Source: a virus
Lineage: Duplodnaviria; Caudoviricetes
IMG/VR virus record: IMGVR_UViG_3300020037_009644
Span: 89,448-153,447 of that record
Length of the DNA stretch: 64,000 bases
Reading direction: 5' to 3' (one strand)
Below the pieces are notes generated by a model. That model did no database searches and was not told the DNA's origin. It saw only the letters and a list, made by a program, of their open reading frames with translations. Positions 3,001 to 45,612 of the stretch are shown here, piece after piece. Position 1 is the stretch's first letter; each line of letters opens with the position of its first letter. A program made the position numbers and the translations under genes.

Positions 3001-6000
3001 GTAGTGAAGATCATCGGCAAGAAATGAGAAACCGTCAAAAGAATATCCAGGAGAATATCCATCGAGCGGGTGGTACCCATCAATCGCTAGATAATCTGTA
3101 TATCCATCCGGGGCAATTCCATCGTAGCCATCGATGTTGAGAATAAAATCAATAGAAGATGTTCCTGATCGAAGAACGTCGAGCATCTCATTGAGACCTG
3201 GGATATATTTGACGTTGTAAACGTCTCCAGAAGAAGAAACTTTGCCAGAATAAACGTGACCATTTAAAGAGTCGACTTCATCTTTGACATACAATTTCCA
3301 GCTATTAACGTCGACGTCGTAATAAATGAAGACGCCATAAAGAGCGGTGTAAATTGCCGAAGGGACGCCGGAGGAAAGATCTTTTGTCAAATCGAAAGTG
3401 TTATTTATTGAATACTCTGGATTGGTTGACTCCGCTCCAATAAAGATATTAGAAGATGGGATTGTGCTTCCATCTCGCAAAAGATTTGAGAAAGTTAATG
3501 TTGCGTCGTTATCTAAGCCATTCCAATCTGGGATAATCCACGTTTCCAGGGATCCCTCTTCGAGACGAAGATTAGAGGAAGCTGCAAGAGAGACGGTTTG
3601 ATTTGATTCAGAAATATTAAGCCCGGAATTATATTTTCCAGATTGAAGTATAAGATCTCTGGTGGTCTCGATGGGATTGAAGCTGAGGTAGCTATAATTA
3701 AGTACCCAATGTTCAAAAATTGCCTCGATAAGCTCGGGCTCGATGTGAGTGATATTCTTGACCAAATTTTTTATCGAAGGAATTGTCGGTCCTTTGGTAA
3801 AACTCTGCAAAGCTCCCATCAGGGCGTCGCGATATCTTTCACGGGGAAGTTGGGGGTCAAAGTTATTGAGAATTGGGATATTGACAAGAGAGCCAAAGTT
3901 TCTCAACAAGCCGTCTCGAAGAGCGCCTATTTTATAGGAAACATAGTAATCCGTCCCTATGTCCAAAGAACGAAGAGCTTGATTAAATTGAATACAGTTG
4001 TCTCCAAATTCGTAGGAGATTAAAATTTGGTCAGTAACATAGGAGTAATCAATCAGAAGGTCACCCTTGCTATAATCGACGACGGGTGTTCCAGCACCCG
4101 TCATTTGAAATGAATAATGAACGATGACCGAATCCCCGGGAGCAGGAGAGCCAGTCAGCCCAGATAAAGTAATTGTATAGCCAGAATATGAACCGTAACC
4201 ATCCCAAAGCTCAACGTTGTCTGAGGTTCTGACAACGGAAGAAACTCCCGCAAGCTCAATGCCGTCACCGAGGTCTGTCAATTCGATATTCAATGGGCTC
4301 AAGATTATCTCTTGACTTTCCAAATTGATTGGAGACAAAGAGATGACGTTGGCAGAAAATGTTGCATTTTCTCCGAAGTCAAGAGGGGAGGTTGAGTTTG
4401 TTAAATTGAAGTGATCGAAGACTCCATGAATAGAAAAGACATCAGAGGTTACCGAAATTGTTTGATTGTCAACAATGTATGGAAGAGATGTATCTCCATT
4501 AAGAAATCTTTCATCCGATCTATTAAAGACGGATTGAGTCACCTCCTCATTGGTAAACTCTGAATATTCAATCGGAATAATGGTCGATGAATTGAGAGAA
4601 TAATAAAGCTGATTAACTCCATAGATTTGGGAAAAGTTGGTAGTTATCGTTCCTTTTTTGTAACTGATCGACCCGAGATCGTAATCGGCATCGTTGCTGA
4701 TGGCAACGTAAATTATTCCATCTGAATAATTAATCAAATATTGCCCAATTGAGGCGAGGCGATTGATATTTTGGTCTTCGGTTTCGGTTTGTCCGTCAAA
4801 GTATATCTCGGTCTCAAAAATATCGGTGTTCGAAAAATAACACGAGCTATTAAAAGAAGAGCCGATTGATTCTTCGGTTGATCCTTGAATGTAAGAGTTA
4901 TTGAGAAAAGCTTTGAATACCCTAATCGAACTGGCATTAACAACCTCTTCGGTCACCAAAATTGTTTCGTTGGTCACCTGGGAATATGAAGCCCTCTCTT
5001 GCAGTTGGGTCGTTACTGTCGGGGGATTGTTGCCGGTAAAAAAGACCTTGTTCCCGCGCCAACCATCAATGCGATAAATTTCTCCGGATGTTTCGTTGTA
5101 AATTCTGAAGACGTCGGTAACCGGACCGTTGGAAACTTGAAGCGAATTGGTTGAAGAAATTTTATTCCCAACACGTTCGTTAAGAACCTCGGTGTGAATT
5201 TGAGGAACGTAATCGACTCCAGAGACGAGGACTCTTTCATAATCAAAGGTAATCGAAGCCTCTTCTCCTTCGAGATCACGCAAGGGAGATCGAACGAGTT
5301 CTTGAGAGCTTGAATCGTAGGTGTAATCTAGATTTTCGGAAAAATATTTACGATAGAAATAACTCGCTGCCGGAGGGAAGTTACCGGTGCCATTGTTTTG
5401 TGTTTCGCCGTAGACAAAAACCGTCCCGGTCGAATAGTCAATTGAGAATTCTCCAGGAAAAGAAGGAAGACCATCAATTCTAAAAGCAATTTCTTTTACA
5501 AAAGCTGGGTGGGCTTCAGAAAATGGTGGATCGGCTAGCGGGTCTAGAAAAGAGACACCATCGGAAGAAACTTCGACATCATTTTGATCGACAACTGGAT
5601 AGTGTCGAAGAGAAAATTTGGTTAAAATTGGAGGTGTTACTTCGCGGATGATCTCAAGAACCTGAGACACTTCGACAGAATCTGGATCGATTAGTTTGCC
5701 AAGGTTTTTATATTCGTAGTCGATGTAGATGAGGTCTCCAGGTCGTGGGATTGCAAAATCTGAATCTTCAAGGACCGCGCCGGAGAGACGAATTTGATTC
5801 AGCTCCAGCGTCTGATAAACAGAGGCTAGATCTGGATCGTATCGATCTGTTTTTAACTGATAGCCGTATTGAGCTGGGTCATAGTTAAAAGAGTTTCCAT
5901 TACCATAAACGATTAAAATTCTAGAAACTTTGATAACCTGAGAATATTTAACGGAAAGGATCAATCCCTCGAAAGTGCCTCCGGAATCAGTTAATCCGCC

Positions 6001-6684
6001 AGAAATTAACAATTCATTATCAATTGAAGACGCCTGGAGAGAAACTGGATAGCTAGGAAAGGAATCAAAGGATTTAAAGTCTGAAATTTTCTTGCCATCT
6101 AGAGATGTAGAAACTCGAATAATTTCATAAGCCCCCTCTTCATTCAACCGATCCCAAGGACCAGCCGATCTTGTTTTCTTTTCATTTTCAACAACCAGGG
6201 AGAGGTAATTGTCATTTTTAAGCTGTTGAATATCGTAAGAAGCTCGGGCGATTTCTGTTGCTTGAGAGTTGAGAATGTCGTTGATCAGCGGATCTCCCAA
6301 GTTGTAAATATTGTCTTGCAAATATTGAGAGAGAGATTTTTTAACTTCATTTTCTGGATCGATTGGTCCAAAAATTAGCTTGGAATTATTTATTCCATCT
6401 TCTAAAAGAAAGGCAACTCCATTTTTTGATTTGAAGCGGACAGAATCGGTAGATTGAAAAATGACATTGTAAGCTGCCGAAGGAACCAACGATTGACAGG
6501 TTATTCTGAGAAATTGATCCTTAATCGATGTTTTTAATGGAAGAGAGCTTGTAATTCCAGAATTATCGTTTGCTTCGATAGCGATGTTTCCCGTTCCAAT
6601 CAAAGAATCCAAGGGATAATTAAATTGAACCAAAATCTGAACGCTAGATATAGCTTGAATAGAAATAATACGAAGAATAGCCAT
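43..6684 (-). CDS. Giant baseplate wedge/peripheral baseplate protein with LamG/concanavalin-like domains (2213 aa)
   Basis: Follows the baseplate J-like gene; wedge-like segment 'ERYRDALMGALQSFTKGPTIPSIKNLV'; LamG-like motifs (GSLETWIIPDW, HHIGISW...MHLFVDG, KGILDELRILN, WHRIMVT...RMFIDG). Confidence 0.65.
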   Translation of the reverse strand: MAILRIISIQAISSVQILVQFNYPLDSLIGTGNIAIEANDNSGITSSLPLKTSIKDQFLRITCQSLVPSAAYNVIFQSTDSVRFKSKNGVAFLLEDGINNSKLIFGPIDPENEVKKSLSQYLQDNIYNLGDPLINDILNSQATEIARASYDIQQLKNDNYLSLVVENEKKTRSAGPWDRLNEEGAYEIIRVSTSLDGKKISDFKSFDSFPSYPVSLQASSIDNELLISGGLTDSGGTFEGLILSVKYSQVIKVSRILIVYGNGNSFNYDPAQYGYQLKTDRYDPDLASVYQTLELNQIRLSGAVLEDSDFAIPRPGDLIYIDYEYKNLGKLIDPDSVEVSQVLEIIREVTPPILTKFSLRHYPVVDQNDVEVSSDGVSFLDPLADPPFSEAHPAFVKEIAFRIDGLPSFPGEFSIDYSTGTVFVYGETQNNGTGNFPPAASYFYRKYFSENLDYTYDSSSQELVRSPLRDLEGEEASITFDYERVLVSGVDYVPQIHTEVLNERVGNKISSTNSLQVSNGPVTDVFRIYNETSGEIYRIDGWRGNKVFFTGNNPPTVTTQLQERASYSQVTNETILVTEEVVNASSIRVFKAFLNNSYIQGSTEESIGSSFNSSCYFSNTDIFETEIYFDGQTETEDQNINRLASIGQYLINYSDGIIYVAISNDADYDLGSISYKKGTITTNFSQIYGVNQLYYSLNSSTIIPIEYSEFTNEEVTQSVFNRSDERFLNGDTSLPYIVDNQTISVTSDVFSIHGVFDHFNLTNSTSPLDFGENATFSANVISLSPINLESQEIILSPLNIELTDLGDGIELAGVSSVVRTSDNVELWDGYGSYSGYTITLSGLTGSPAPGDSVIVHYSFQMTGAGTPVVDYSKGDLLIDYSYVTDQILISYEFGDNCIQFNQALRSLDIGTDYYVSYKIGALRDGLLRNFGSLVNIPILNNFDPQLPRERYRDALMGALQSFTKGPTIPSIKNLVKNITHIEPELIEAIFEHWVLNYSYLSFNPIETTRDLILQSGKYNSGLNISESNQTVSLAASSNLRLEEGSLETWIIPDWNGLDNDATLTFSNLLRDGSTIPSSNIFIGAESTNPEYSINNTFDLTKDLSSGVPSAIYTALYGVFIYYDVDVNSWKLYVKDEVDSLNGHVYSGKVSSSGDVYNVKYIPGLNEMLDVLRSGTSSIDFILNIDGYDGIAPDGYTDYLAIDGYHPLDGYSPGYSFDGFSFLADDLHYIFDFGKENNKNRISLFKDGSGYLCFSIYDNQGALRQISKDVSDWLAGEKHHIGISWKLSSSDLRDEMHLFVDGFEVPNILKYGGRPISSSSDRFRTIKPEYVVGTVPKNVINGADMHLAAGSSIIYSDSVNFTTGGIVGGDLVEFPELGLGSYTISSVSGNQLTLSSIIPLSFDNAKFTVNAYSVVVSSQLAFYKNIVVSVLRDGVETELAGLRADLPDYSIDKNALNQDVLTILGDALVGDTILVRTLGLNHRRIRERQFVYGSSSSIIKTQLPAPINLSEVNIYSVLLPLVPIGPDNATFGSGVFTANNLTTYQPSNGTQGRTLSVRVTSSNTDFTTPVSVTINGSTTETLLFSSAGIKNTVNKFSSISDVDVIVTPYYSTANATSVEIKEAYSLMYSEGNNDYPILRYSTQVSSGYGTLSGVGDLLTDSSGSFVDSDLNQYIVISSPGPAVGTYSIVERIDEHTVRVSSPTPPDFSSGIYKLYHTSLGNAGFVNGFFTLETAGEIAVPYLLPEAFYEFDYSSYLSLPFDPFENEKIFIGSSRNGDKQVKGILDELRILNKKMTDVRIGEPASIDGMSFTEDSIRISPFKKNKNTLVLLHFDSLPLENDADLWISGDRDFIQTSASVNSNFEKALLITEKPYVIDNAGILPLNHSGTIEFWISPRYDVPNDPTLRYYFDAYGATVEETVSLTRNTIKTSGRISEIVSIKVANSDKDISGDATIRSDSRTVQLKQSLPYQNTPVVISYIPTGVSGNRFSIYKDPYGFISLSVIVDDQEFKISQYVSWARQTWHRIMVTFDFNNRDNEDQIRMFIDGEEGGTIKFGQGFKFGQGLVFGQRGGDSPLTSDINFADSINQLFLGGDYLGKHTAYASFDNVKFSNIAKSPALVAGQSKDLNFNSNIDVVLPAIEDLYTTKIINFDTEIVKKKDFAILHDEAYGIFNFTLNVIDSFGYVSGNAQVKQILETLIDILKPAVSKAKINYYS

Positions 6685-6715
6685 AATTAGATGCGATCTT
6701 TAGGAGAGAATTTAA

Positions 6716-9970: not shown

Positions 9971-9999
9971 TTCAGTTAAATAAGAAAATAGTGGTTGAA

Positions 10000-15551: not shown

Positions 15552-17573
15552 CTAGAATGTTTTGCCGGCTGGATATCTTGCAACTGATCTATCAGCGGTT
15601 CCTGGATAAAAAGTAACTTTTTCTCCATCTATGAAAACAGAACTATTGCTCTTTAAAATAATATCTTGCTGAGCGTCGAGAGTGATCCCTCCAGGAGATA
15701 TCAAAAACAACCCCTCGGGACCGAAGCGCAAAATTCCGAGCTGTCCGTTTATATTGATTCTCATTTCGAAAGTTCCATTACGCCATCCAGAATTTTGATC
15801 CGAAAACCTAGAATCCTGACTGCTTGGCAACCCAACTCCGCCAACTTCGATCAGAACATCTCCGTCCATCTGGGCGGCGTAAGAAATTCCCTGTTTGTCT
15901 CGACCATAGCGAGCCACTACCCCTCCGGCACAGTCAACCCATAGAGACTGACGATCGATGGTATTCGCGCCGAAATTAAGAGAGACCATTCCGTCAAAAT
16001 TCAAGGTTGCCGATCTTCCTCCGGCGTTAGCGTCTGGACCGTTGACGATGATAGTGTCCGAGACAATTTTGGGAAGAGGTTTGTAGATCGAATTAAGCCT
16101 GCTGGTCTGGTCGAAGTTTACCAGCTTTAATCCCGCCTGAATATAGTTTGCCGACTCTTGAAATTCTTGACAGGTCTTTGAGATGTCGTGGTAAGCCGTC
16201 CCGAGTCTGATCAGAGAGTCGGAGAATCTGTCAACCGGACTAGCATATCCATCGAGGTCCTGATCCGAGCCGGCAAGCTTGACGACCGGATAAGAAGAGA
16301 AGTTTCCAAGGTAAATATCTTTAGAGTCATTTGGTTTTACAAGAGAGTTAGGATTTATCGAAGAATCTTCCTTGCTTTTGAGAACAGAATAGTTCTCGTA
16401 CCTCGTTAGTAGCGCGATGTTCCCTGTCTCGGAGCTGGCTGGAAAGTTGGCTTTGATCTGACTTTCTTTATCAATATCAACGAAGAAGCGGCTGCTATTC
16501 TTTCCGTAATTAACATTTTGGGTTATGTCTGGAGTAGAAAGGTCGCTATTTTCGAAGGGTTTTCGAGAGTTAATTTCCCAATGATAAGCGAGACTTTTTC
16601 GAAATTGCTCGGTAATATTTTGATAAGCGACAGATTTGTTGACCGAATCTTTGAGAGAAATTTCCGATATCTTCCCAATAGGAAGTGGATTTCTATTTAA
16701 ATCCAGGATGTTTCCGAAAACGTCGGTCCCTGTACCACGAATTGTCTCCATTAAATGATTGGGGAATTCAGGAGAAAGAGAAAAGGCATCCGTGCGATTT
16801 TCTCGACGAGAGTTTCGAAGAACCGATGGAAGAAGAGCCGGGTCTCCATATCTAGAGGACTCTTCTGAATATGAGGAGACCTGGTAGCTGGGATCGAATT
16901 CGTAGACAATTTCTTTGGACTCGACGAGAGCCGGATTTCTGATCGCTCCACCAATTGTCTCTTGAGAAACGGCGACCGTGGGATCTAAACCGATTTTGAA
17001 AAGGCTGTCTTCGTATCGATGTTCTTCCAAAAATGACGAATTGCTCGCCGAGGCTGAAGAATTAGCCAGGTCTCTTTTAATTATCCCAGTAATTTTTCGG
17101 ATCGAAGAACTAAATTCCCATTGGTCAGAAAAATTGTTGGAAATAATCTCGCGGATTGGATCGGCATGGAGATAAACGTCGTCTTGTCCGACCTTGAATC
17201 CGATTTTTGGGTCGAGAAATAGATTATTCCCCCCTTTGACCTGGGCAAGAATTCTCCCCGGTTTCAAATTTCCGAAAACGGTCGAATCTGAGAAAATTTG
17301 GGGATTGGCTTTGTATCCCAGGATAAACCATTCTCCACCTTGACCCTGAGAAAGCTTAACCGAGGTTCCGACTCGAGGATAACCGCCGAGGAACTCACCG
17401 TCTGTTCCGATCCACGGAGCTGGAATCGGGATGGTGAATTTTTGACGTGGTTGAGAAAGAGAAACTTCGTCGAGACCTACTTCGACAGTTCCTTGGGTTG
17501 GATTGACCTTGAGAATCGTCCCGACCCGATGATTTCCAAACGGAGAACCAAGCCTTGCGTCAAGAGGTGGCAT
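15552..17573 (-). CDS. Baseplate spike (gp5/gpV/VgrG-like) (673 aa)
   Basis: N-terminal OB-fold-like 'VGTILKVNPTQGTVEV...GGYPRVGTSV'; beta-rich C-terminus 'LISPGGITLDAQQDIILKSNSSVFIDGEKV'; GGAGG SD; follows hub. Confidence 0.7.
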   Translation of the reverse strand: MPPLDARLGSPFGNHRVGTILKVNPTQGTVEVGLDEVSLSQPRQKFTIPIPAPWIGTDGEFLGGYPRVGTSVKLSQGQGGEWFILGYKANPQIFSDSTVFGNLKPGRILAQVKGGNNLFLDPKIGFKVGQDDVYLHADPIREIISNNFSDQWEFSSSIRKITGIIKRDLANSSASASNSSFLEEHRYEDSLFKIGLDPTVAVSQETIGGAIRNPALVESKEIVYEFDPSYQVSSYSEESSRYGDPALLPSVLRNSRRENRTDAFSLSPEFPNHLMETIRGTGTDVFGNILDLNRNPLPIGKISEISLKDSVNKSVAYQNITEQFRKSLAYHWEINSRKPFENSDLSTPDITQNVNYGKNSSRFFVDIDKESQIKANFPASSETGNIALLTRYENYSVLKSKEDSSINPNSLVKPNDSKDIYLGNFSSYPVVKLAGSDQDLDGYASPVDRFSDSLIRLGTAYHDISKTCQEFQESANYIQAGLKLVNFDQTSRLNSIYKPLPKIVSDTIIVNGPDANAGGRSATLNFDGMVSLNFGANTIDRQSLWVDCAGGVVARYGRDKQGISYAAQMDGDVLIEVGGVGLPSSQDSRFSDQNSGWRNGTFEMRININGQLGILRFGPEGLFLISPGGITLDAQQDIILKSNSSVFIDGEKVTFYPGTADRSVARYPAGKTF

Positions 17574-29833: not shown

Positions 29834-30625
29834 TTATAGATTGTTTAAAACATCCAAAAGATCAATATTTTCTTCGACGGTTAATCCCGCTGCCGGAGTA
29901 AATGGATCTTTATAGGTATCTCCGAATTCTAGGCAAAATTTGAAAATCTCAACGACGTTATCAATGGGAATTTGACGAACCCATTCGGTTCTTATTTCCA
30001 AAGAAATTGTTTGTTTGAAAAGCTTGTCATTTCGAGAATCTCCGTCGGTAGCTCCGCCGGCAGAGATATTTTTAACAACTATTCCTTGATTGACCAAGAT
30101 TTCAAAAGCGGTATCTTTAAAAAAGAGCATGATAAGATCGACGAGATCATTGCGAGATCCCGAGTTTTCTGATTGAACTTCTATGGTAAAAGTTCCTTCC
30201 CAAGCTCCAGACTGTTCAAAACATTGAGGGCGAGAAACTATAGCCGAGTTTCCGTAACCATCAACGTATTCGATCGACATATATCTAACGAATTCTTTGT
30301 TTCTAGACATCGAGACCGGTGAATCTCGCATTCCGGAATTACGAACCAAAATGGCTGGAAAATGCTGGGCGTCTTGGCGATAATACTCTCCGATATACAA
30401 TCGAGATTGAGAGCTGTCATTAACTCCGGCATCTAACGGAAGATTGGTATTGTTGGAAATTTTCGAGAATCCGTAGGAATCATTTTGGTAATGATAGTAG
30501 TGATCTTGGGAAAAGAACTCCTTCAATGCCCAGATAAGGGTATCGATAACATATCCGATACCTGAGTTTTGGGTGTACCCATGAAGAGAGTATAGATCAG
30601 TTTTCCAAAGATTACCGGTTGCCAT
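29834..30625 (-). CDS. Tail completion/terminator protein (263 aa)
   Basis: Upstream of sheath; 'FPAILVR', 'GTFTIEVQSENSGSRNDLVDLI', 'ISLEIRTEW'. Confidence 0.6.
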   Translation of the reverse strand: MATGNLWKTDLYSLHGYTQNSGIGYVIDTLIWALKEFFSQDHYYHYQNDSYGFSKISNNTNLPLDAGVNDSSQSRLYIGEYYRQDAQHFPAILVRNSGMRDSPVSMSRNKEFVRYMSIEYVDGYGNSAIVSRPQCFEQSGAWEGTFTIEVQSENSGSRNDLVDLIMLFFKDTAFEILVNQGIVVKNISAGGATDGDSRNDKLFKQTISLEIRTEWVRQIPIDNVVEIFKFCLEFGDTYKDPFTPAAGLTVEENIDLLDVLNNL

Positions 30626-30626
30626 A

Positions 30627-33600
30627 TTAGTATACGAAACTTATTGTGATATCTTTAACTTTAAGCGTACAACCAGATGAATGATTTTGTTGAAATGTTA
30701 CTATTAGATATGGACAGGTGGTAGCTGCACCAAAACCATAACGCACAACGCTTTGCGCAGTAACCGTTAATGCCAATGTAGTATCTACACCAGCATTCGC
30801 CCAAGCTACGTTGTTAGTATCTGTATTATTGGTTCGTAATGATAATTCAATAAAATTTGTTCCAGCAATAGTCGAAGCATTATATGTTAATTGACAAGCA
30901 GTTATTGTAACTCCTTCAGGTAAAACTCCAAGTAAAGGAATTAGTAAATTACCACCATTAGCAGTATTTAAATCTAAATAATTAAATATAAAGCTTGAAG
31001 GAAGAGGATCACCTAAATTAGTATCTTGACTAATAACTGTGAGATCGCCAGCGAGATTACCAGCAAGAACTGCATAGGACCCGTCGCTCAAATTTATAGT
31101 AAAATTGCCACAATTTATTGGAACAACATAACTAAATGTTTGATTCTTATTTCTAGTAACAACGAATGTATTAGAAGCATTGGGAGCTACATCTAGAGAA
31201 GACCCATCGATTGTCGTCGAATCAAAGAAATTATCTGTACAAATACCAGTAGCTTTTGTTCCTCCTGAAGGCATTCTTATAAATGCACTTATGGCGGCAG
31301 CTGATCGGTATATTTGATTTTGACAGATAGTATAATTTCTGATAGCGCTGCCGGTTCCAGCAGATGCTCTGATACCTGTTCCGGATGTTTTCAACCCTCT
31401 GACAATGTTTCCGGTAATAATCCCTGATGATTGAACATCAACTCCGGTATCGTACCCATAAACTAAACTATTGTATCTTCCAAAGTTAGTATGGTTGTTA
31501 ACCACCGTAGCTTCAGATTTAACGCCGCTAGATGAATGAGCAACAAAAATAGCATAGTTTGGTGGATTGGGAGTAAATAGGCTTAGATAAGAACTATCAT
31601 ATCCATCAAGATGATTTCCATCAATAAGAAGAGAAGAATAGCCATCTGTAATATCTAAAGTTTGAACCGAAATCCAGTGAGCGTAATTATTTTTGATCGA
31701 AACGCGTCCAAAGCCATATTCTGACTGATCAATGTTAAGTTGAAGATTGCCTGTTCCAAAAAAGTTTCCAATTATGAAGCAAGTATTGTTTTCAATCGTT
31801 AGCCCAGATGTAACGTTGTGTTTCAAAAATTCGGTAGAAGCATTGGTATCACCTGATATTACGTATCCGATACTGCCACAAATATTTTTAGAAATAGAAG
31901 AGTTGACAACATTCATCCCCGGAGACTCAACATCTGTTGTTCCAAGTTCGGTAGTCATGTAAAAACCCTGTTGATGAGAACAGAAGTTATTTTCAATTCG
32001 GACGTTTAAAAGACAGCTGGGGTTAGGAGAGAACCCAACTCCTAAATGATAAAATGCAGCCGCAGCTTGGTTTTTACCAACTTCCGAAATTGGCTCATCA
32101 ATAAACGAACAGTTGGTGACACCGACATTTTTAATCGTTTGACCGGTAATCAATTCAAAAAGAATAAATGGAGGTCTTTGGCTAGTATTTCTAGAGGTAA
32201 AAGTACATCGATTAACAAAGGTATTTTCACAATCAACGTTGGTTGAGTAGAGACAAGCGTTACCAACGTTGAGAAGATCCGCGGGGCTAGAGAAAGAAAG
32301 ACCGGTTGGATTGTAATTAAAGGTACAATCTTCGAAGAGAACGTTGCTGTCAATTTCAAAAGACTTGGCGGCGGTGCAGTTGAAAACTCCGTTCAGTCCT
32401 CGAATGATGATTTTTTTGTTAATGTTGACCAGCGGGATGGTGGTCGAGATATCAAAAGCCCCCTTAACCTGAATCTCATTTTGATATCCGTCTGAAAAAT
32501 TGATCCAATTGGTCAGAGAGGTAAAATCATAGAAGTTTCCGACAATGTTATTGTCGGAGACCCAAGTCAAAACGTTGTTGCTTGATTGTTTATGAACGAA
32601 TCGGCGAACGTCGGTTACCAGATCAACGGTCAACGAAGCAACGGTGACCGCCATAATTGCCAGAGGTGTTAAATCTTTACGAGACTGAAGTAGTTCGAAG
32701 AAGGTGACCGAGGGAAGATAGTAATTTCCTGAGCCTGGAGTGACGAAGTATTGCTGTTTGGTTGTTGTTAGAATAAGAGGAGTTAGTTCTCCTGATTCGT
32801 TAATGCAAATGACATAGGTCATCGGTTGAGGAAGAGATGTGCCAGCTGTATAAATTTGAGGAATTGTTACAGAGGAATTGTTAGCAATGACAATTTTGCC
32901 ATTAACCAATGCTATTCCGCCGTCAAAATAAACCTCTCCAGAATCAGCAACGGCTGAGACCGAGCTAACCCCCAAGCCTCGAAGGACTCCGTTCTCATGA
33001 AGAAGAGCGTCTCCGGATGTAATAAAGTCAATTGCTGATTGGGTAAAATCAACCTCGTCGACAGAACCGAATTGACGGGCATCGTTGGTTTTTTGAATGA
33101 TTGGGTATGTTGAAACCGGGTCCCAGTTGACCTCACAAGTTGCCAGAAGAAGATATTGATCGTTCAGCTGCAATGATGGATAAAGATCAATATCGACATA
33201 TCTAACATTGACATTGCTAAGAACATCCGTACCTGGGGAGGCTGAAATTTCTTGAAATGTTAAATCTATATAATCAGAATATGTCTCGTCGAAAAATCGG
33301 GTCGGAACGTTTTTTCTTCCTCGAGTTACTGGACCGGGATTACTTATTCCAGGACCACCTGAAATTGGAACTCCCAAATATCCGTCGTACTCTCCGGTTG
33401 TCGAATTATATTCGGTAACATAAAAACGAATTCGCTTCTGAAAATCGGAGGAGATTCCTGATAAATAACCACGAAGTTTGGGACTAACCGAAGAGATATG
33501 CCAGTTGGTCGTTGCCAACAATGTTGCCGACTCTGTTTGTCGAGGAAGACGAGCTCGTTCGTGAGAGAATGTTTTTCCCTGATCGGTTACGTAGATTTCG

Positions 33601-35837
33601 TGCCATCTTTGGTAATCATTTGACGTGGGAAGAGTATCTACCAGATTTTCGTTATTGAAAGAAACCGAGTCATACCCGAAGTAAATCTTGACAGGAAGCG
33701 ATGGAACTGCGGAAGTTGCGACGGGAGCTAACCCGCTGTGAATCGAGTTAAGAACAGTTATGACCGTCGATCCGCCCGAAGTGTCGCAAGAAGAAACATA
33801 AGCAACGTTTTTGATAATGAAGCGACCGTAATCAACCTTATTATAACTAGGGTCCGAAGAAACTATCGTCGGCTGAATTACCAGAGTTTTCCCAGGAGAC
33901 ATTCCAGCCGGAGCTAAATTGTGGAGAACTGTATAACTGGTTTCGACGGTCGAAACTCCAATAACTGTTCTCGAAGAAACGTAACCATCCCAATAGCCGT
34001 CCCCGATCGCCAGGTAGGTGTCGGCGAATGTATCTAACTTCCTACCGTTGACGTGGTAGTATCTTTGCTTAAGGGGAACGAGAACCTTGGTAGGAAATTG
34101 AGCCGCGACGGAATCGGTCCAAGAGGCAAGATATTCCGGAGATGCTGAATTTGATCCGGTTGATCCCAACCCAAGAGCGTCGTAAGAATCAGGAGTACCA
34201 GATCCCCCGCCAATAACGTTGTTTGGTGTGCTCGAGGTATCTAGAGTTCCGCTAGAATTATCACCTGAAATAATCGAAAACCCGGCATTTCCAATACAGT
34301 CGGCAAGCATGATTCCGAAGTTGCCATTCTTGGCAAATGACAGAAACCTCATGCTGTAACCGTAGGCATGGAGTGAATTATTGGTCTCGAGGACGACCGA
34401 CTCGAGAGTATAATTTCCTGGAGTCGCTCCGCTATTTCCGGTTACATCTATCGCATTCAAAACAATAGTTTGATCCGCGGGATTTCCATTAGGATAGAGG
34501 GCTAGATACAAAAGATAATGGCTGGAATTTAACTGTCCTGGATCGAAACCAATTCCCAAAGCCGAAGCTCCTCGTGGATGAGCAACAAGCATGGAGCTGA
34601 GAACGTTGGTCGAGACCGGGATTCCAGCTCGATAAGCGTTTACAGGAGCGGTGGCAAGAATTCCAAAGGTTTCTTTGTCGGCAGAGGGTCGATTGATTTG
34701 AGCAATGGCGTCGGTTGCATCGCAAAGATTGACCCCGTTGATCCTGACAATCCATTCGGTGTTTGGAATGAATCTTATTTCATCAACGAGGTAGTCTGCT
34801 TGGGTTCCGTTGCCGTAATTGATGGTAATCTGATCGCCAATTTGAACCTGAGAAAATTGGGCGTCAAAAATATACCCAGTATTATCATTTGGAAAAAAAC
34901 GAACAAGATCATCACCAACCGAGAGGTCGTCGACGAATCCGGTATTTGGAGAGTGGGTTAAAAATGTTTGACATCGTGTGGTCGAAACGACGTTGCTTCC
35001 GTGGGCTGCGTAGCCGTCCAACGCTCCAATATAGCTCGATCTCGCAATTGGGGCGACGGCGTTGGCATGCTGGGTCGCTCGATGCTGACCAAGATTGTAG
35101 GTCTCGGCATCGTCAAGATAATCCAAAGCTTTTTGAACGTCGGTCGCCGTTAATGGAATTTCAACAAAATTGTCGGTATTAACGACAATTGCCGAAGCGT
35201 TGTGTGCCCCGCTCGTTGAGTTTTCGTGATCAACCAGATCGTCATTAATTTCTAAAAGAGCATCTGCGACCGTGTCGGCTGAACGATCATTGCCATCTTT
35301 GTCAAGGAGACCTGTCCAGGTATAGCTAGGATCTCTTGTATCCGAAGGCATTGCGTTAATATCAATTTGAGAAGCTACGTGTCTTGCCTTCGTGCTGGAG
35401 TCTGAAAGAAATTCGCTTCCTGTAATATGAAGAATGAGATCGGAAAAAATTTGATTGGCAAAGGTGACCAAAGAAGCGATGAGGGCAGAATTATTGAGAA
35501 CTCCGGTATGAAGATCGGAGGTGGAATAATCGAGATCAAGCTTACTCTCTTCAATTCCTGCGTTGCTGGCAACCTGAGAGTTAACAATGGGAAGAGTCGC
35601 CAGCCCAACCGAGGTTAATTCGCTTGCCCTGATGTGACCATTCTCGTTAAATGAGACGGAGAGGAAAGAGGCTAGATCCGAAAGGTTGCCGGAAAATTCA
35701 CGACCCAAAGATCTTTCAACAGCGAAGACTGCGTCTCTTAGCTGATTGATAGCCGTACCACCAATCTCGGTTACGTTATCATCAACTCGAAAAATTGTGG
35801 TGTCGTCGTCGTAATTAAAAGGAAACGGTGAGCTCAT
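30627..35837 (-). CDS. Large virion fibre/appendage protein with C-terminal beta-helix-like region (1736 aa)
   Basis: 'INQLRDAVFAVERSLG' N-terminus; 'HxASxI...VQKALDYL' fibre-type motifs; C-terminal I/V-x-N-N repeats (RIENNFC, TIENNTC, SIKNNYA, IITGNIV). Confidence 0.6.
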   Translation of the reverse strand: MSSPFPFNYDDDTTIFRVDDNVTEIGGTAINQLRDAVFAVERSLGREFSGNLSDLASFLSVSFNENGHIRASELTSVGLATLPIVNSQVASNAGIEESKLDLDYSTSDLHTGVLNNSALIASLVTFANQIFSDLILHITGSEFLSDSSTKARHVASQIDINAMPSDTRDPSYTWTGLLDKDGNDRSADTVADALLEINDDLVDHENSTSGAHNASAIVVNTDNFVEIPLTATDVQKALDYLDDAETYNLGQHRATQHANAVAPIARSSYIGALDGYAAHGSNVVSTTRCQTFLTHSPNTGFVDDLSVGDDLVRFFPNDNTGYIFDAQFSQVQIGDQITINYGNGTQADYLVDEIRFIPNTEWIVRINGVNLCDATDAIAQINRPSADKETFGILATAPVNAYRAGIPVSTNVLSSMLVAHPRGASALGIGFDPGQLNSSHYLLYLALYPNGNPADQTIVLNAIDVTGNSGATPGNYTLESVVLETNNSLHAYGYSMRFLSFAKNGNFGIMLADCIGNAGFSIISGDNSSGTLDTSSTPNNVIGGGSGTPDSYDALGLGSTGSNSASPEYLASWTDSVAAQFPTKVLVPLKQRYYHVNGRKLDTFADTYLAIGDGYWDGYVSSRTVIGVSTVETSYTVLHNLAPAGMSPGKTLVIQPTIVSSDPSYNKVDYGRFIIKNVAYVSSCDTSGGSTVITVLNSIHSGLAPVATSAVPSLPVKIYFGYDSVSFNNENLVDTLPTSNDYQRWHEIYVTDQGKTFSHERARLPRQTESATLLATTNWHISSVSPKLRGYLSGISSDFQKRIRFYVTEYNSTTGEYDGYLGVPISGGPGISNPGPVTRGRKNVPTRFFDETYSDYIDLTFQEISASPGTDVLSNVNVRYVDIDLYPSLQLNDQYLLLATCEVNWDPVSTYPIIQKTNDARQFGSVDEVDFTQSAIDFITSGDALLHENGVLRGLGVSSVSAVADSGEVYFDGGIALVNGKIVIANNSSVTIPQIYTAGTSLPQPMTYVICINESGELTPLILTTTKQQYFVTPGSGNYYLPSVTFFELLQSRKDLTPLAIMAVTVASLTVDLVTDVRRFVHKQSSNNVLTWVSDNNIVGNFYDFTSLTNWINFSDGYQNEIQVKGAFDISTTIPLVNINKKIIIRGLNGVFNCTAAKSFEIDSNVLFEDCTFNYNPTGLSFSSPADLLNVGNACLYSTNVDCENTFVNRCTFTSRNTSQRPPFILFELITGQTIKNVGVTNCSFIDEPISEVGKNQAAAAFYHLGVGFSPNPSCLLNVRIENNFCSHQQGFYMTTELGTTDVESPGMNVVNSSISKNICGSIGYVISGDTNASTEFLKHNVTSGLTIENNTCFIIGNFFGTGNLQLNIDQSEYGFGRVSIKNNYAHWISVQTLDITDGYSSLLIDGNHLDGYDSSYLSLFTPNPPNYAIFVAHSSSGVKSEATVVNNHTNFGRYNSLVYGYDTGVDVQSSGIITGNIVRGLKTSGTGIRASAGTGSAIRNYTICQNQIYRSAAAISAFIRMPSGGTKATGICTDNFFDSTTIDGSSLDVAPNASNTFVVTRNKNQTFSYVVPINCGNFTINLSDGSYAVLAGNLAGDLTVISQDTNLGDPLPSSFIFNYLDLNTANGGNLLIPLLGVLPEGVTITACQLTYNASTIAGTNFIELSLRTNNTDTNNVAWANAGVDTTLALTVTAQSVVRYGFGAATTCPYLIVTFQQNHSSGCTLKVKDITISFVY

Positions 35838-36911: not shown

Positions 36912-36940
36912 AGTATGAATTCGAAAACCGGAAAAGTCAA
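36912..36940 (-). promoter_or_regulatory. Sigma70-like promoter TTGACT-N17-CATACT
   Basis: -35 at 36940-36935, exact 17-nt spacer, -10 at 36917-36912; predicted +1 near 36905. Confidence 0.6.
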
Positions 36941-37194
36941 GGAACATTTCTTTAAAAAAGAAACGAAAACGCAGAAAGCCTGGAAAACAAGGGGTCCGCG
37001 TGGGTGTGGTTATTTTATTGAGATCATCCTCGATTTGTTTTATTGCAGACCTCGCTCGCGTTTGGTTTTGTAAGACCTCGAGGCACAGCCCTTCTCATTT
37101 TCGTCAATGAGAAAATTATTGAGATCAATTGGGCACTCACCCATCAGCAATGACCCTAGCTAGAAAGATCGGAGGTCTTTAAACGGCAAGCCTG

Positions 37195-37521: not shown

Positions 37522-37536
37522 ATTTCCTTTTAGAAT

Positions 37537-39144
37537 TTAAAGAACGAAGGTATGTGTGTGACTAAAGCTTTCCAAGGTTGTCGAATCTCCTCTAATTTGA
37601 TGACTATGAGCCTGGGCAACGATAGCTCCATTGTGACTGGTCGAAGTTAAAACTTGTCCTGGGGATATAATCGTTGGACCAACTTGAAATGTATGTGAAT
37701 GGGGTAGGATAAGACCGGGGACCGAAGAGACCGAGGTGGTAATAATTCTAGGTTGATCGGAAGTATTAGGGGTGAACAAGAAACGGTAAAAATTATCTGT
37801 TTTGCGAACTCTGGTCATAGCAAGTTTTTGAGCTCCCACAACCTGATCAAACAAAGCGTTGCGAGTTACGTTAAGGACTTCGTAGCGAAAAACTTCTGCA
37901 TCGGTATATTTATCGTAGGTGATCAACATGTCTCGATCGTTAATCGTTGGTGTTGAAAGAGTCCAGCCGTTGGGTGCATAGGTCGATTCTAGTCCGGCAT
38001 CTTGATAAGGAACATCGTCAACAGTTGCATCGAAACGAACCATAATTCTTCCATCAGATCTTCGAGGATTGTAATAAGGCTCCCAAGAAAGAACCCTCCC
38101 GCCACCTCCGCAGATAGGACATCGTGGATCTGCATATTCTTTGTTTGCTTGATAACAGGCGCAATACATTCCTTTCCAAACACGTTTGACAAGCATGCAT
38201 GGCTGACCGGTTGTTTCGAGGAGAATCTCTTCTCTCTTTAATTGTTCATCGTTAACGTTGGATCCTCGAATGATTCTTCCAACCCCAGAATATCCATCGG
38301 CACAATAATGTTCTCCGCCGAAGTAACTTCCGACGCATTTTCCGGTGATAATGTCTATTGGACGAAATCTTTTCCAGCCACGATAATCATATGGAGGAAT
38401 GGTAACCAAAACGGCGTCGGAAGCAGTTTCGGTGGTGTTCAGCATATCATCCGTTCGGTTGGCATAACCATCTAATTCGGTTACCGGAAAGTTAGGATAG
38501 CTAAAATCTGCCGTCTCGGAATGGATTTTGAAGTTTTGTTCTTCGAGTCCTTTCCAGATTGCCACTATTGGGCTCTCAAGATGATATCCATCATAACCAT
38601 CTGGCTGATGTTCGCGGACGTTGGTGTCCAAAAATCCTCGAATGAGATTGGTAACTGAATTATTGAGCAGGTCTCGGTTGGAATATTGGATAAGTTCGTT
38701 ACCAATCTCGATAATTCCGGAATTTGGAAAAGAAGAAATGTTGGAAAGAAAGATAGAAGTGTCATTTACTCCAAGAGTTTGCAGAAGAATAGCGTCAGGA
38801 TATATTTTGGAGTCTCCGGAATCAGGAAGGAGATCTAGATTGATCCAATCGTTTTGCCATTGGGTCGCCCGAACGGCAAAATAAAAAGTATCTCCTGGAA
38901 CAAATTCATTAATTTCCAATGAGAAGACCGTAGGATCAATTGAAATATATTTTGGACCCTCGGAAAAGACGGAGTCGAAATCTGTTGAATAATAAATGTT
39001 GTAAGCCAGCCGAAGGCTAAAGGGGCTGGGATAGGCTTTTTCCCATCCGATGGTTATTTTTGTTCCTTGACTATTTGATTGTGCCGTCGTGATTCCAACG
39101 TTGGAATGCGGGATGTAATAGGGACGGTCGGTTAGGGTGCACAC
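37537..39144 (-). CDS. Neck/head-closure-like protein with N-terminal FN3-like domain and C-terminal HxH motifs (535 aa)
   Basis: 'ITIGW...YNIYYS...PGDTFYFAVRA' (FN3-like); 'CAC...CPICGGGG' Zn motif; HSH/HSH/HTH at the C-terminus. Confidence 0.55.
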   Translation of the reverse strand: MCTLTDRPYYIPHSNVGITTAQSNSQGTKITIGWEKAYPSPFSLRLAYNIYYSTDFDSVFSEGPKYISIDPTVFSLEINEFVPGDTFYFAVRATQWQNDWINLDLLPDSGDSKIYPDAILLQTLGVNDTSIFLSNISSFPNSGIIEIGNELIQYSNRDLLNNSVTNLIRGFLDTNVREHQPDGYDGYHLESPIVAIWKGLEEQNFKIHSETADFSYPNFPVTELDGYANRTDDMLNTTETASDAVLVTIPPYDYRGWKRFRPIDIITGKCVGSYFGGEHYCADGYSGVGRIIRGSNVNDEQLKREEILLETTGQPCMLVKRVWKGMYCACYQANKEYADPRCPICGGGGRVLSWEPYYNPRRSDGRIMVRFDATVDDVPYQDAGLESTYAPNGWTLSTPTINDRDMLITYDKYTDAEVFRYEVLNVTRNALFDQVVGAQKLAMTRVRKTDNFYRFLFTPNTSDQPRIITTSVSSVPGLILPHSHTFQVGPTIISPGQVLTSTSHNGAIVAQAHSHQIRGDSTTLESFSHTHTFVL

Positions 39145-39158
39145 GCAAAAATACCGAT

Positions 39159-42473: not shown

Positions 42474-42492
42474 GGTAGAATACCGGAATATT
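42474..42492 (-). promoter_or_regulatory. Candidate phage late-promoter motif NATAW-N5-YAT-N6-(start); other copies at 45613-45631, 43095-43113, 39145-39163, 29813-29831, 9974-9992
   Basis: Same motif at the same spacing before several start codons. Confidence 0.55.
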
Positions 42493-42494
42493 TA

Positions 42495-43094: not shown

Positions 43095-43110
43095 GGTTAT
43101 ATACGCGGAT

Positions 43111-44745
43111 ATGGAAGATTTAGAAGAGCAAGAAAATAGTGAAGAGGGTGATCGATCCGACAGAGACGAGGTCGGGGAAGATGATACGCCATACCAGATT
43201 TACAAAGTAACTAATAAAATTAACGACAAGATTTACGTTGGATTGACTAAGCAGGGTTTGAAACAAAGGTTTACCGGACATTTTTCAAAAGCTAGACGCG
43301 TCGAAAAATCAAAAAGAAATTACTTTCAACATGCATTGATTAAATATGGCAAAGAAAATTTTTATATCGAAGAAATTGATACTTGTGTTGGATATAAAAA
43401 TGCCGGAGATTTAGAAACAAAATGGGTCGCTGAGTTAAAATCAAACTGTAAAGAAGTTGGATACAATAGTACCAGCGGAGGACAAAACTTTAAATGGACA
43501 CCCGAATCGATTCAAAAAATTAAAGATGGGATGCAGAGAAAATTCGATGAAAACCCAGGGTTGAAAGAGAAATTAATCGAAAATAATCGTCTTAAACTGA
43601 AAGAATATTACAAAACTCACGAAGCTATTGGAAAAGGAATTCCCCATACACTAAAAACTAGGCAGGAGCTTTCTCTGATTTTCAGAGAGAAAAGCAAAAC
43701 AACTCCAAGTCCATGGAAAGGCAAAAAACATTCTCCCGAAACAATTGAAAAAATGAAAGCTAATCGACCAAAGACGCTAACTAAATCTGCTAAATTGACA
43801 GTCGAACAGGTCGAAGAAGTTCAACGATTAGATTCTGAGGGCTATCCTATTGATGAAATTAAGAAAATATTCGCAATAGGAGATTCGATGTTGGTAAAAA
43901 TAAGAGAAGGAAGATATTTTGAACCTAGAAAAGAATATCCTGGACGACCCCATAAAAAGTATCAAAACTCTGAGGAAACGATAAAAATAATCAAAGATTG
44001 TAAAAATTCTGCTGAGGCGTCAAGAGCTTTAAATATTAGCTCCACCCTTTGGTGCTGGATTAGAAAAACTTACCCAGAGATAAAAACAAAATCAGACGAA
44101 ATTTTTGCGAAAAACAAAGTAGAAATAGTAGAAAAAGAAGAAATAGTTAAACTAACAAAAGAAGAGTTGAGAAAATTACAAAGCGAAAATGCAAAGGAAA
44201 GGTGTAAAAAAGACCCCAGTATTATTGAAAAAATGCAAGCCGGGTATGCTAAACGAGTTTTAGAACAAGGTCATCCATTGCTGGGTCGCCCACGCACAGA
44301 GGAAGTTAAACAAAAAATATCAAAAGCTCATTTTGCCTATACAAATGAAGAAATTTTAAATTGTATTGTCGAAAACAAATGTGTGACAACCAAACAGTGT
44401 GGAAAACATTTTGGTGTCGATCGAAGATATTGGTGCACAATTGTTAGAAAATACAATCTGCAAAAAGAAGCAAAAGAATTGATTGATGCCAATATTAGTA
44501 ATTTGATTGAAGAAAAATTCGATTTGAAAACAGTCAAAAACATAATTAAGAACAGCTCATCTGGCTCTGAAATCTGTAATGAGTTTGACATTGACTTTGA
44601 TATTTGGAAGTTGATTTTAAACAAATATGATCTAGAAAAAGAATATGATAAACAGGTGGTAAGAAATAAATGGAGTAAGAAAAAGGCTGATAAACTAGAT
44701 GATCTGGCGCGCGCGCAAATGCCTGAGTCTGGAATAAGCGGGTGA
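43111..44745 (+). CDS. GIY-YIG homing endonuclease with NUMOD3 motifs (start probably ATG 43111 or 43093)
   Basis: 'QIYKVTNKINDKIYVGLT...RFTGH...ALIKYG...E...GYN'; NUMOD3-like 'KGKKHSPETIEKMK', 'GRPRTEEVKQKISKA'; the only convincing plus-strand gene. Confidence 0.85.
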   Translation: MEDLEEQENSEEGDRSDRDEVGEDDTPYQIYKVTNKINDKIYVGLTKQGLKQRFTGHFSKARRVEKSKRNYFQHALIKYGKENFYIEEIDTCVGYKNAGDLETKWVAELKSNCKEVGYNSTSGGQNFKWTPESIQKIKDGMQRKFDENPGLKEKLIENNRLKLKEYYKTHEAIGKGIPHTLKTRQELSLIFREKSKTTPSPWKGKKHSPETIEKMKANRPKTLTKSAKLTVEQVEEVQRLDSEGYPIDEIKKIFAIGDSMLVKIREGRYFEPRKEYPGRPHKKYQNSEETIKIIKDCKNSAEASRALNISSTLWCWIRKTYPEIKTKSDEIFAKNKVEIVEKEEIVKLTKEELRKLQSENAKERCKKDPSIIEKMQAGYAKRVLEQGHPLLGRPRTEEVKQKISKAHFAYTNEEILNCIVENKCVTTKQCGKHFGVDRRYWCTIVRKYNLQKEAKELIDANISNLIEEKFDLKTVKNIIKNSSSGSEICNEFDIDFDIWKLILNKYDLEKEYDKQVVRNKWSKKKADKLDDLARAQMPESGISG

Positions 44746-45612
44746 TCGTCCGACGTTGCCATTCCACATAGACTGAATTCCAATTGGCGCTGGTTTCATA
44801 GACAATTTCGCATCTTTCACTCTTTCACGAATCTGTGTACCCCAGTAACTCGACTGCGTATTCAACATATCAGAAAGTGCCGGAGGAGTAAAAGCCACCC
44901 CGCTATCTGTCATATTCCATTCGCTTCCTCTTTCAATTAATGCTTGGCTTCCGAGCGCTGCCGCAAAGGCAATTTCCACAAACATGTCGTGGAACAAATT
45001 GATTATCGGAGTATCTTCAAAGGTGAAATATGTAAAGTGCGGCGTCGAATTGAAGTAGCTCAATGCGTTGCACAAGAACGTAATCAAAGTCGTTGGGTTA
45101 AAAATATCGCACTCTCGATAGATCGGGTTGCCGAATTGATCTTGACCGGCAACCATGCCAGAACTGCGAAGTCTTTCTTTCAAGCTCTTCAGAAGCTTGT
45201 TAATGTTGACAATTGCACACTGGGAATAATTGAATGGGATATCGTCGCCGAGGGCGTAGTACCCATCGACGTTGTTTCCCAGAGGCATTTGGGAAAGATT
45301 GATAATGAAGTTGCGGTCTTTGGTAATGACCTGCCCAGATGGAATGACCCCCCGCCAAACGTCGGAGTAAACACCGATTGCCGAACCGAGAGTCGTGGTA
45401 TAATCAAAACCAAAAACGCCGTCGCTCAAAGAATATACCCCAGACGATGTTGGTCCTAATATAACTAAACCATCAGGTTGTACAATGGTTACTGTTGGAA
45501 AACTTCCGCTCTGTAAAGATGTTAAATTTCCATTGAGATCGTAGAACTCCATTTTCAAAGAAACAGTTTCGGAAGGAGCTACAATTTCGCCGCGAGATCG
45601 CAAGGTTGCCAT
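44695..45612 (-). CDS. Neck/head-tail adaptor-like protein (305 aa)
   Basis: Ig-like N-terminus plus helical adaptor-like C-terminus ('FLCNALSYFNSTP', 'QALIERGSEWNMTDSGVAFTPP'); assignment rests largely on context. Confidence 0.55.
   Translation of the reverse strand: MATLRSRGEIVAPSETVSLKMEFYDLNGNLTSLQSGSFPTVTIVQPDGLVILGPTSSGVYSLSDGVFGFDYTTTLGSAIGVYSDVWRGVIPSGQVITKDRNFIINLSQMPLGNNVDGYYALGDDIPFNYSQCAIVNINKLLKSLKERLRSSGMVAGQDQFGNPIYRECDIFNPTTLITFLCNALSYFNSTPHFTYFTFEDTPIINLFHDMFVEIAFAAALGSQALIERGSEWNMTDSGVAFTPPALSDMLNTQSSYWGTQIRERVKDAKLSMKPAPIGIQSMWNGNVGRSPAYSRLRHLRARQII

What the first reader, a model, noticed from the sequence alone, without database searches (positions are those of the whole stretch)
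3055..45267. A DGY tripeptide tags probable surface virion proteins: candidate modification or docking code
Seen: by manual count DGY occurs 22 times, in only 7 proteins: wedge 2213 aa (5), spike (1), sheath (3), terminator (1), 1736-aa fibre (7), 535-aa neck (4), 305-aa neck (1). It includes tandem forms DGYDGY and DGYWDGY. A rough composition estimate gives only 1-2 expected in those ~6500 residues. In the 1736-aa and 535-aa proteins, 7/12 and 4/5 DG dipeptides are followed by Y. I found none in tube, tape measure, hub, baseplate J, gp25-like, collagen or the enzymes. Codons vary (GAT GGC TAC, GAT GGA TAT, GAT GGG TAC, GAC GGT TAC), so it is not a DNA repeat. Inference: a short linear motif on exposed loops, used as a modification site (Tyr O-glycosylation is known from some bacterial S-layers; glycosyltransferases are encoded nearby) or as a repeated binding site for a decoration or fibre protein.
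Basis: partly seen in the sequence, partly recalled or inferred. Interest (0 to 1): 0.88.

Follow-up and report, generated by a model that had tools for sequence, protein, structure and literature searches.

The report
DGY tag on huge-phage tail proteins
The outer tail, neck and fibre proteins of this uncultured huge phage and its clade carry the tripeptide Asp-Gly-Tyr about ten times more often than chance; it behaves like a surface tag that something reads, perhaps an enzyme that modifies the tyrosine, but no modification or partner has been shown.

Summary
DGY occurs 22 times in exactly the seven proteins named, against 3.1 ± 1.8 in composition shuffles. In the tail/neck block it is by far the most enriched tripeptide: 27 observed, 2.7 expected, p 4e-18. 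It is in frame only, uses 13 codon spellings, and is residue- and order-specific: DGF 0.9x, YGD 1.1x, no NGY or EGY.

A complete 459-kb relative repeats the pattern. Its virion block has 69 against 6.3 expected, and the rest of its genome 15 against 16.8. Sites are conserved islands in variable flanks, and new sites keep arising in fibres. The sites share no domain.

A sister clade keeps the same sheath domain with none of the three DGYs (0 of 56), so the fold does not need them. The major capsid protein has none.

The reading as a modification or docking code stays unproven. The glycosyltransferases near the finding are absent from all five DGY-rich relatives searched, and no sugar transferase tested tracks the motif.

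This scan has already reported the same motif on at least seven other genomes.

The parts
43..6684 (-). 2213-aa baseplate wedge/fibre protein with a ConA-like lectin domain. It has 5 DGY at aa 828, 1185, 1193, 1202 and 1208 (window 4195-4203, 3124-3132, 3100-3108, 3073-3081, 3055-3063). Four of them lie in a D-G/A-Y-rich stretch that is kept in both clades.
15552..17573 (-). It has 1 DGY at aa 441 (16245-16253), which is not kept in relative G001.
27309..29762 (-). 817-aa tail sheath with 3 DGY at aa 149, 177 and 201 (29310-29318, 29226-29234, 29154-29162), all in one insertion domain. The site at 201 is invariant in 31 homologues. The family consensus has a further DGY at aa 184, where this phage has PGF.
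29834..30625 (-). It has 1 DGY at aa 122 (30254-30262), kept in 58 of 63 homologues.
30627..35837 (-). 1736-aa fibre-like protein with no family match and 7 DGY (aa 274, 613, 617, 818, 1116, 1398, 1411). Four to five alignment columns are conserved, and 37 more carry DGY in only a few of the 34 homologues.
37537..39144 (-). 535-aa neck/fibre protein with a four-Cys cluster and three C-terminal HxH boxes. It has 4 DGY (aa 182, 185, 225, 283), kept in 33-42 of 43 homologues. The site at 283 is near-invariant inside a segment of pLDDT about 33.
44695..45612 (-). 305-aa neck-module protein with 1 DGY at aa 116 (45259-45267). Its homologues in G001 and G006 also have one DGY.

Best explanation
DGY is a short surface tag that something else reads. 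An Asp-Gly turn presents a tyrosine whose hydroxyl is the working group, and the most likely reader is a phage-directed enzyme that modifies that tyrosine on outer tail, neck and fibre proteins, with a sugar as the leading candidate. Shown: the enrichment, its restriction to these proteins, its residue specificity, its conservation and repeated gain, and its independence from fold. Inferred: that the sites are exposed, that a reader exists, and what the modification would be.
For: The enrichment is about 10x and no other tripeptide comes close. A complete relative shows the same, with 69 against 6.3 in the virion block and 15 against 16.8 elsewhere, and so do all 80 related loci. Tyr and Asp are specifically required. 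DGF is at 0.9-1.1x, NGY at 0-0.4x, EGY is absent and YGD is at 1.1x. That points to the hydroxyl rather than to aromatic packing. Profile comparison of the flanks of 13 sites finds no homology beyond about 9 columns. Conserved sites are islands in variable flanks. In the variable 1736-aa fibre family DGY occupies 42 alignment columns, against 9-23 for the control tripeptides, three of which (DGS, DGT, DGV) are expected about twice as often. The fold does not need the motif, because 56 sister-clade sheaths keep the domain and loop lengths with DS[N/S/A], PG[L/R/K] and D[S/A]S at the three sites. In a dockerin-like calcium loop the Tyr sits at position 7, which in EF-hand loops binds calcium through the backbone only (textbook knowledge). 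Two near-invariant sites lie in segments that the monomer models cannot place, with pLDDT below 50. Tube, tape measure, hub, gp25-like protein and baseplate J have none in 8400 residues. DGY-rich genomes carry 3-7 GT2 genes clustered near the tail module, against 1-2 in the sister clade.
Against: There is no chemical evidence of any modification. No enzyme tested tracks the motif: the GT4-like gene is in both clades, the CgeB-like gene is missing from two near-complete (100% and 91%) DGY-rich genomes, and the window's 1153-aa transferase is in none of the relatives. The contrast between rich and poor genomes rests on a single clade split, so any clade-specific gene would appear to track it. 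The major capsid protein lacks DGY. When a conserved site is lost, the three residues go separately: Gly persists, and Tyr is replaced by Phe or by Val, Thr or Ile. That pattern fits a turn plus a strand residue. Many fibre DGYs are followed by a hydrophobic strand inside repeated modules. I had no model coordinates, so exposure is inferred only from secondary structure and confidence. No sequon for Tyr glycosylation is known (PMC2943079).
Confidence: 0.38

Rival explanations
1. DGY is a docking site. The loops form a repeated contact for one shared partner, such as a decoration or fibre protein lying along the tail, or a neighbouring subunit. The Asp and the Tyr hydroxyl make the contact and there is no covalent change.
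For: The evidence is the same as for a tag read by something else. In addition, near-invariant DGYs lie in segments that monomer models cannot place (sheath 197-202, 535-aa 268-294), which is typical of interface segments. Positions in the sheath, the 263-aa protein and the 535-aa protein are strictly conserved, as expected for a fixed partner.
Against: No partner was identified. It is hard to see why one partner would bind sheath, wedge, neck and several unrelated fibres, or why variable fibres would keep gaining new sites. Tandem and near-tandem runs (DGYDGY, and the D-G/A-Y run in the wedge) do not look like discrete interfaces.
Confidence: 0.2
2. DGY is a structural micro-motif that nothing reads. 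A D-G turn followed by a strand-initiating Tyr stabilises the beta-rich outer domains and fibre repeats, and it has become a habit of this lineage.
For: All 7 modelled sites lie in turns or at strand edges. Losses follow turn and strand rules (Gly kept; Tyr to Phe, Val, Thr or Ile). Many fibre sites are followed by hydrophobic strands inside repeated modules, and one sits in a dockerin-like loop. DGF is 2.3x enriched across the relatives. The sister clade and T4 show a milder excess of 2-4x.
Against: The same sheath domain folds without the motif in 56 sister-clade proteins. Beta-rich inner proteins, the capsid protein and 119,000 residues of non-virion proteins in G001 show no excess. The strong preference for Tyr over Phe and the absence of NGY and EGY are not expected of a generic hairpin. 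Two near-invariant sites lie in low-confidence loops rather than in well-packed hairpins.
Confidence: 0.25
3. DGY loops are adhesive hot spots. Exposed Asp and Tyr give many weak contacts with host polysaccharide or matrix, which helps the long tail and fibres hold on to cells.
For: The motif is densest and changes fastest in fibre-type proteins, the parts that meet the host. The 2213-aa protein also carries a lectin-like domain.
Against: Invariance in the sheath and in the 263-aa and 535-aa proteins across relatives down to about 40% identity does not fit binding to variable host surfaces. A tripeptide cannot form a binding pocket on its own.
Confidence: 0.1
4. The excess is an artefact of composition, of a DNA repeat, of one shared domain or of local duplication.
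For: Four wedge sites and the tandem pairs are local duplications.
Against: Shuffle, dipeptide-aware and de-clustered controls all fail to explain the count. There are 13 codon spellings and the pattern is in frame only. No shared domain was found. Independent genomes repeat the pattern.
Confidence: 0.02

Closest known systems
Bacterial glycosylation sequons: Campylobacter PglB D/E-X-N-X-S/T and the Bacteroidota O-glycosylation motif D-(S/T)-(A/I/L/V/M/T) (from my own knowledge; PMC4894442 covers PglB)
   Same: Each is a motif of three to five residues with an acidic residue just before a hydroxyl or amide acceptor, and each is used on many unrelated surface proteins.
   Different: The acceptor here would be Tyr. 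Phage tails assemble in the cytoplasm, whereas those systems work in the periplasm with a membrane oligosaccharyltransferase. I did not look for such an enzyme, and no glycan has been shown.
Virion glycosylation of mycobacteriophages by phage-encoded glycosyltransferases (Freeman et al. 2023, recalled from memory and not read here; mentioned in PMC11256854)
   Same: The phage carries sugar-transferase genes next to its structural genes, which suggests sugar-coated virions.
   Different: In those phages the targets are capsid and tail-tube proteins, and no tripeptide sequon is described. Here the capsid and tube proteins lack the motif, and no transferase tracks it.
Tyrosine O-glycosylation of S-layer proteins (Paenibacillus alvei, Thermoanaerobacter; PMC2943079)
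   Same: It is a prokaryotic precedent for stable sugar-to-Tyr links on self-assembling surface proteins.
   Different: There are two to four sites per protein with variable flanking sequence and no consensus. Transfer occurs during secretion by an O-oligosaccharyltransferase.
Recurrent structural micro-motifs such as the Asp-box (S-x-D-x-G-x-x-W) and the tyrosine corner (L-x-P-G-x-Y), from my own knowledge
   Same: They are short turn motifs built on Asp, Gly and an aromatic residue, and they recur in unrelated beta proteins.
   Different: The spacing and residues differ. Those motifs occur across all of life and are needed for the fold. DGY is specific to one clade and one group of proteins, and the sheath domain can do without it.

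Membership tests
Protein glycosylation sequon system | A short acceptor motif used on many unrelated target proteins | tested here: met
   27 sites in 8 unrelated proteins. There is no flank homology. Sites are conserved and repeatedly gained.
Protein glycosylation sequon system | A transferase whose presence goes with the motif | tested here: not met
   The GT4-like gene is in both clades. The CgeB-like gene is absent from 2 near-complete (100% and 91%) DGY-rich genomes. The 1153-aa transferase is absent from all 5 relatives. Only the GT2 gene count differs, at 3-7 against 1-2.
Protein glycosylation sequon system | A glycan attached to the acceptor residue | not testable with these tools
   This needs mass spectrometry of virions or of expressed tail proteins.
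DxDxDG / EF-hand / dockerin calcium loop | D-x-[DN]-x-D-G with the following residue at position 7 | tested here: not met
   Only 1 of 37 genome sites fits, in the 968-aa fibre (Dockerin_1, E 4e-6). The flank statistics of the other sites show no D/N pattern.
Tyrosine corner | Consensus L-x-P-G-x-Y, with Gly at Y-2 and Pro at Y-3 | tested here: not met
   Here Gly is at Y-1 and Asp at Y-2. Pro is enriched only at Y-4 (6 of 36 sites).
Shared domain or repeat family | Detectable homology of the sequence around the sites | tested here: not met
   hhalign of 73 pairs of family segments (+/-45 aa) gave a best probability of 56% over 9 columns.
Contractile tail sheath (host protein of three sites) | Sheath fold and family signatures | tested here: met
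   PHROG tail sheath at E 5e-10. Foldseek matches to the phi812, T4, P1 and Mu sheaths, with E down to 5e-15.

The most novel reading that the evidence does not exclude
D-G-Y is the recognition site of an undescribed cytoplasmic enzyme that modifies tyrosine and coats the tails and fibres of a whole clade of huge phages. That would be the first sequon for a tyrosine modification and the first tail-wide modification code in a virus of bacteria.
Probability: 0.3. Interest if true: 0.9.

Novelty: new variant of a known kind. Interest (0 to 1): 0.7.

Why it matters
A three-residue motif conserved on the outer tail of a clade of uncultured 150-460-kb phages, found on hundreds of metagenome contigs, points to a process in virion biology that is not yet described. 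It could be a coat on the tail, a common docking rule or a stabilising device. The question can be tested directly: the sites are known to the residue, the sister clade supplies natural DGY-free versions of the same domains, and one mass-spectrometry or cryo-EM experiment would decide it. If it is a tyrosine sequon, it would also be a compact new tag for protein engineering. No paper in the library searched mentions the motif.

Tried and rejected
A DNA-level repeat is rejected by the frame and codon counts. Composition or dipeptide bias is rejected. A shared domain is rejected. A general property of myovirus virion proteins is rejected by the T4 control, 5 against 2.5.

A calcium-loop explanation fits one site only.

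Among candidate enzymes, the GT4-like, CgeB-like and 1153-aa transferases fail to track the motif. The 391-aa PLP enzyme in the neck module tracks the clade (5/5 against 0/5), but it is a NifS/IscS/DndA-type cysteine desulfurase, so a role at tyrosine is unlikely. A 410-aa FAD-binding oxidoreductase also tracks the clade (4/5 against 0/5). It has no solved relative and remains only a lead.

Locus L078 looked DGY-free, but that came from my ORF caller cutting off the sheath's N-terminal part. The long contigs carrying the DGY-less sheaths P0245 and P0252 could not be fetched, so I used IMG/VR loci instead.

Sheath searches of GenBank phages and a single-protein scan of IMG/VR found nothing. Solvent exposure could not be computed because the tools do not return model coordinates. 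The complex-prediction job was not used, because there was no candidate partner.
Full report
WHAT IS THERE. The window is the last 64 kb of a 153-kb virus contig. The contig is a fragment of a larger genome: the same genes lie on contigs of up to 169 kb, and the identical sheath on one of 256 kb. All large genes run on the minus strand. In transcription order they are as follows.
- A collagen-like fibre with a sugar-pathway and transferase cluster.
- A cysteine-desulfurase-like gene.
- Neck-module genes, including the 305-aa and 535-aa proteins.
- The 1736-aa fibre-like protein, the 263-aa protein, the sheath and the tube.
- The tube initiator, tape measure, gp25-like protein and baseplate J.
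- The 2213-aa wedge/fibre protein.
The sheath assignment is also supported by fold matches to the phi812, T4, P1 and Mu sheaths. The sheath has no match among 50,697 GenBank phage records. It does have hundreds of metagenomic relatives at 42-64% identity, on contigs of up to 459 kb.

THE OBSERVATION.
- The window holds 22 DGY, against 3.09 +/- 1.79 in 2000 composition shuffles (maximum 11). Counting motifs less than 30 aa apart as one gives 15 against 3.0.
- In the tail/neck block plus the adjoining 968-aa fibre, DGY is the most enriched of all tripeptides: 27 against 2.7, p 4e-18. With dipeptides taken into account it is 6.3, p 7e-10. The runner-up has p 5e-5.
- The pattern is in frame (27 in frame, 3 in another frame, 2 antisense) and has 13 spellings.
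- It is specific. DGF occurs 3 times against 3.5 expected, NGY 0 against 2.6, EGY 0 against 1.9 and YGD 3 against 2.7. Tyr follows 27 of 104 DG dipeptides.
- T4 virion proteins give 5 against 2.5.

RELATIVES. All 80 IMG/VR loci around homologous sheaths show the excess, 547 against 54.6 in total. The distribution among protein families is the same as in the window. The mean number per protein is 2.7 for the sheath, 0.9 for the 263-aa protein, 4.9 for the 1736-aa protein and 5.3 for the 535-aa protein. It is about 0 for the tube, tape measure and tube initiator.

I assembled a complete 459-kb relative, G001, from fetched pieces. Its virion block has 69 against 6.3 (p 2e-46), with DGF 7 against 6.1 and EGY 0 against 4.2. 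Its other 118,785 residues have 15 against 16.8. The enrichment therefore belongs to the virion block and not to the genome as a whole.

The major capsid protein lies just beyond the window end and matches the PHROG major head protein. It has no DGY here, in G001 or in G006.

HOW THE SITES EVOLVE.
- In the sheath, three alignment columns carry DGY in 26, 25 and 31 of 31 homologues. This phage has lost one of them (PGF) and gained another at aa 149.
- In the 535-aa family, five columns carry DGY in 29-42 of 43 sequences, while the flanks vary freely.
- In the 263-aa family, one column carries it in 58 of 63.
- In the variable 1736-aa family, DGY occupies 42 columns, 37 of them in only a few sequences. 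Control tripeptides occupy 9-23 columns, even though three of them (DGS, DGT, DGV) are expected about twice as often.
- Profile comparisons of the +/-45-aa surroundings of 13 sites find nothing beyond about 9 columns at the motif itself.
- The only weak flank preferences are Pro two residues before the Asp and a hydrophobic residue just before it.

STRUCTURAL CONTEXT. In the two AlphaFold models, all seven sites lie in turns or at strand edges. Sheath site 201 and 535-aa site 283 are invariant or nearly so, yet sit in segments with pLDDT below 50. By analogy with the nested domains of the T4 sheath, which I recall rather than tested, the domain that carries the sheath sites should face outward. 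I could not compute exposure. Some fibre sites sit inside recognisable modules: a dockerin-like calcium loop with Tyr at position 7, and repeated modules in which DGY precedes a hydrophobic strand.

THE KEY CONTRAST. A sister clade of aquatic huge phages is syntenic from capsid to fibres. Its sheath is about 40% identical and about 1070 aa long, and its complete genome G006 is 335 kb with terminal repeats.
- The same sheath domain is present, with the same loop lengths, but DGY is absent at all three sites in 56 of 56 sequences. The sites read DS[N/S/A], PG[L/R/K] and D[S/A]S instead. The fold therefore does not need the motif.
- This clade shows a weaker excess: 124 against 55 in 80 loci, and 17 against 4.0 in the G006 virion block, mostly in wedge and fibres. 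It includes tandem pairs and a D-A/G-Y run at the same place in the wedge as the window's cluster.
- The motif is thus older than the split between the clades, and it has spread into the sheath, neck and other proteins in the window's clade.

THE SEARCH FOR A READER OR ENZYME.
- DGY-rich genomes carry 3-7 GT2 genes clustered 30-45 kb from the sheath. Sister-clade genomes carry 1-2, located elsewhere.
- No individual enzyme tested discriminates as a sugar transferase should. The GT4-like gene beside the fibres is in both clades. The CgeB-like gene is missing from two near-complete (100% and 91%) DGY-rich genomes. The 1153-aa GT2-methyltransferase-GT4 protein of the window is in none of ten genomes.
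- Two non-transferase genes follow the clade. One is a cysteine desulfurase in the neck module, 5/5 against 0/5. The other is an FAD-binding oxidoreductase, 4/5 against 0/5, with no solved relative.
- All of this rests on a single clade split, so it proves nothing. Two earlier reports of this scan said the motif comes and goes with a sugar-transferase gene. I could not reproduce that with the transferases of this genome.

READING. The specificity for Tyr over Phe and for Asp over Asn or Glu points to chemistry at the side chains. The restriction to outer tail, neck and fibre proteins, the independence from fold and the repeated gains all point to selection for the tripeptide itself. That is what a tag read by something else looks like.
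- Modification of the tyrosine is my leading mechanism (0.38), with a sugar as the first candidate because of the sugar gene clusters.
- A shared docking contact comes next (0.20).
- A reader-free structural habit stays a serious rival (0.25). Losses follow turn and strand rules, many fibre sites sit in strand-initiating positions, and a milder excess exists in the sister clade and in T4.
- Adhesion to host polysaccharide (0.10) and artefact (0.02) follow.

NOVELTY AND STANDING. No paper in the searched library mentions the motif. This scan has already reported the same motif on at least seven other genomes of this clade, with the same verdict, so this window is a further instance rather than a first sighting.
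- the fold-independence shown by the sister-clade sheath;
- the absence of the motif from the capsid protein;
- the at-expectation count in 119,000 non-virion residues of a complete relative;
- the failure of three specific transferases to track the motif.

Noticed in passing
window 43051-44745 (+): A 564-aa GIY-YIG/NUMOD3 homing endonuclease is the only large plus-strand gene. It is wedged between the metallopeptidase-like gene and the 305-aa neck gene.
   Followed up: partly
L086:5563-7788 (beyond the window's high end, same phage): The major capsid gene appears to be split. An 81-aa ORF, a 332-aa LAGLIDADG endonuclease and a 261-aa ORF lie in a row, and the last matches only positions 68-317 of the 318-position PHROG major head protein profile. 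This is probably an intron or an intein; G001 has an uninterrupted 339-aa gene.
   Followed up: partly
window 46719-47894 (-): A 391-aa NifS/IscS-type cysteine desulfurase, which also resembles the DndA and SspA enzymes of DNA phosphorothioation, sits between the sugar genes and the neck genes. It is present in 5 of 5 relatives of this clade and 0 of 5 of the sister clade.
   Followed up: partly
window 37537-39144 (-): The 535-aa protein combines a conserved four-Cys cluster with three C-terminal HxH boxes, which resemble the metal-binding boxes of T4 fibre tips (consensus).
   Followed up: no
window 39159-43094 (-): A 1104-aa protein with an eCIS core (DUF4157-type) domain lies next to a 199-aa HEXXH metallopeptidase-like protein inside the neck module.
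   Followed up: no
G000 86572-89478 (just before the window) and G001 315070-317748: The last tail fibre carries dockerin-like calcium loops, one here and two in G001, each with Tyr at position 7. It is the protein densest in DGY, with 5 here and 10 in G001.
   Followed up: partly
G000 30436-31668: A 410-aa protein with an FAD/NAD Rossmann N-terminus and no solved relative lies beside the DUF5907 fibre genes. It is found in 4 of 5 clade relatives and 0 of 5 of the sister clade.
   Followed up: partly
window 3055-3132; G006 wedge aa 2079-2093: The wedge protein keeps a short D-G/A-Y tripeptide run at the same place in both clades. In G006 it reads as a pure run of DGY and DAY units.
   Followed up: no
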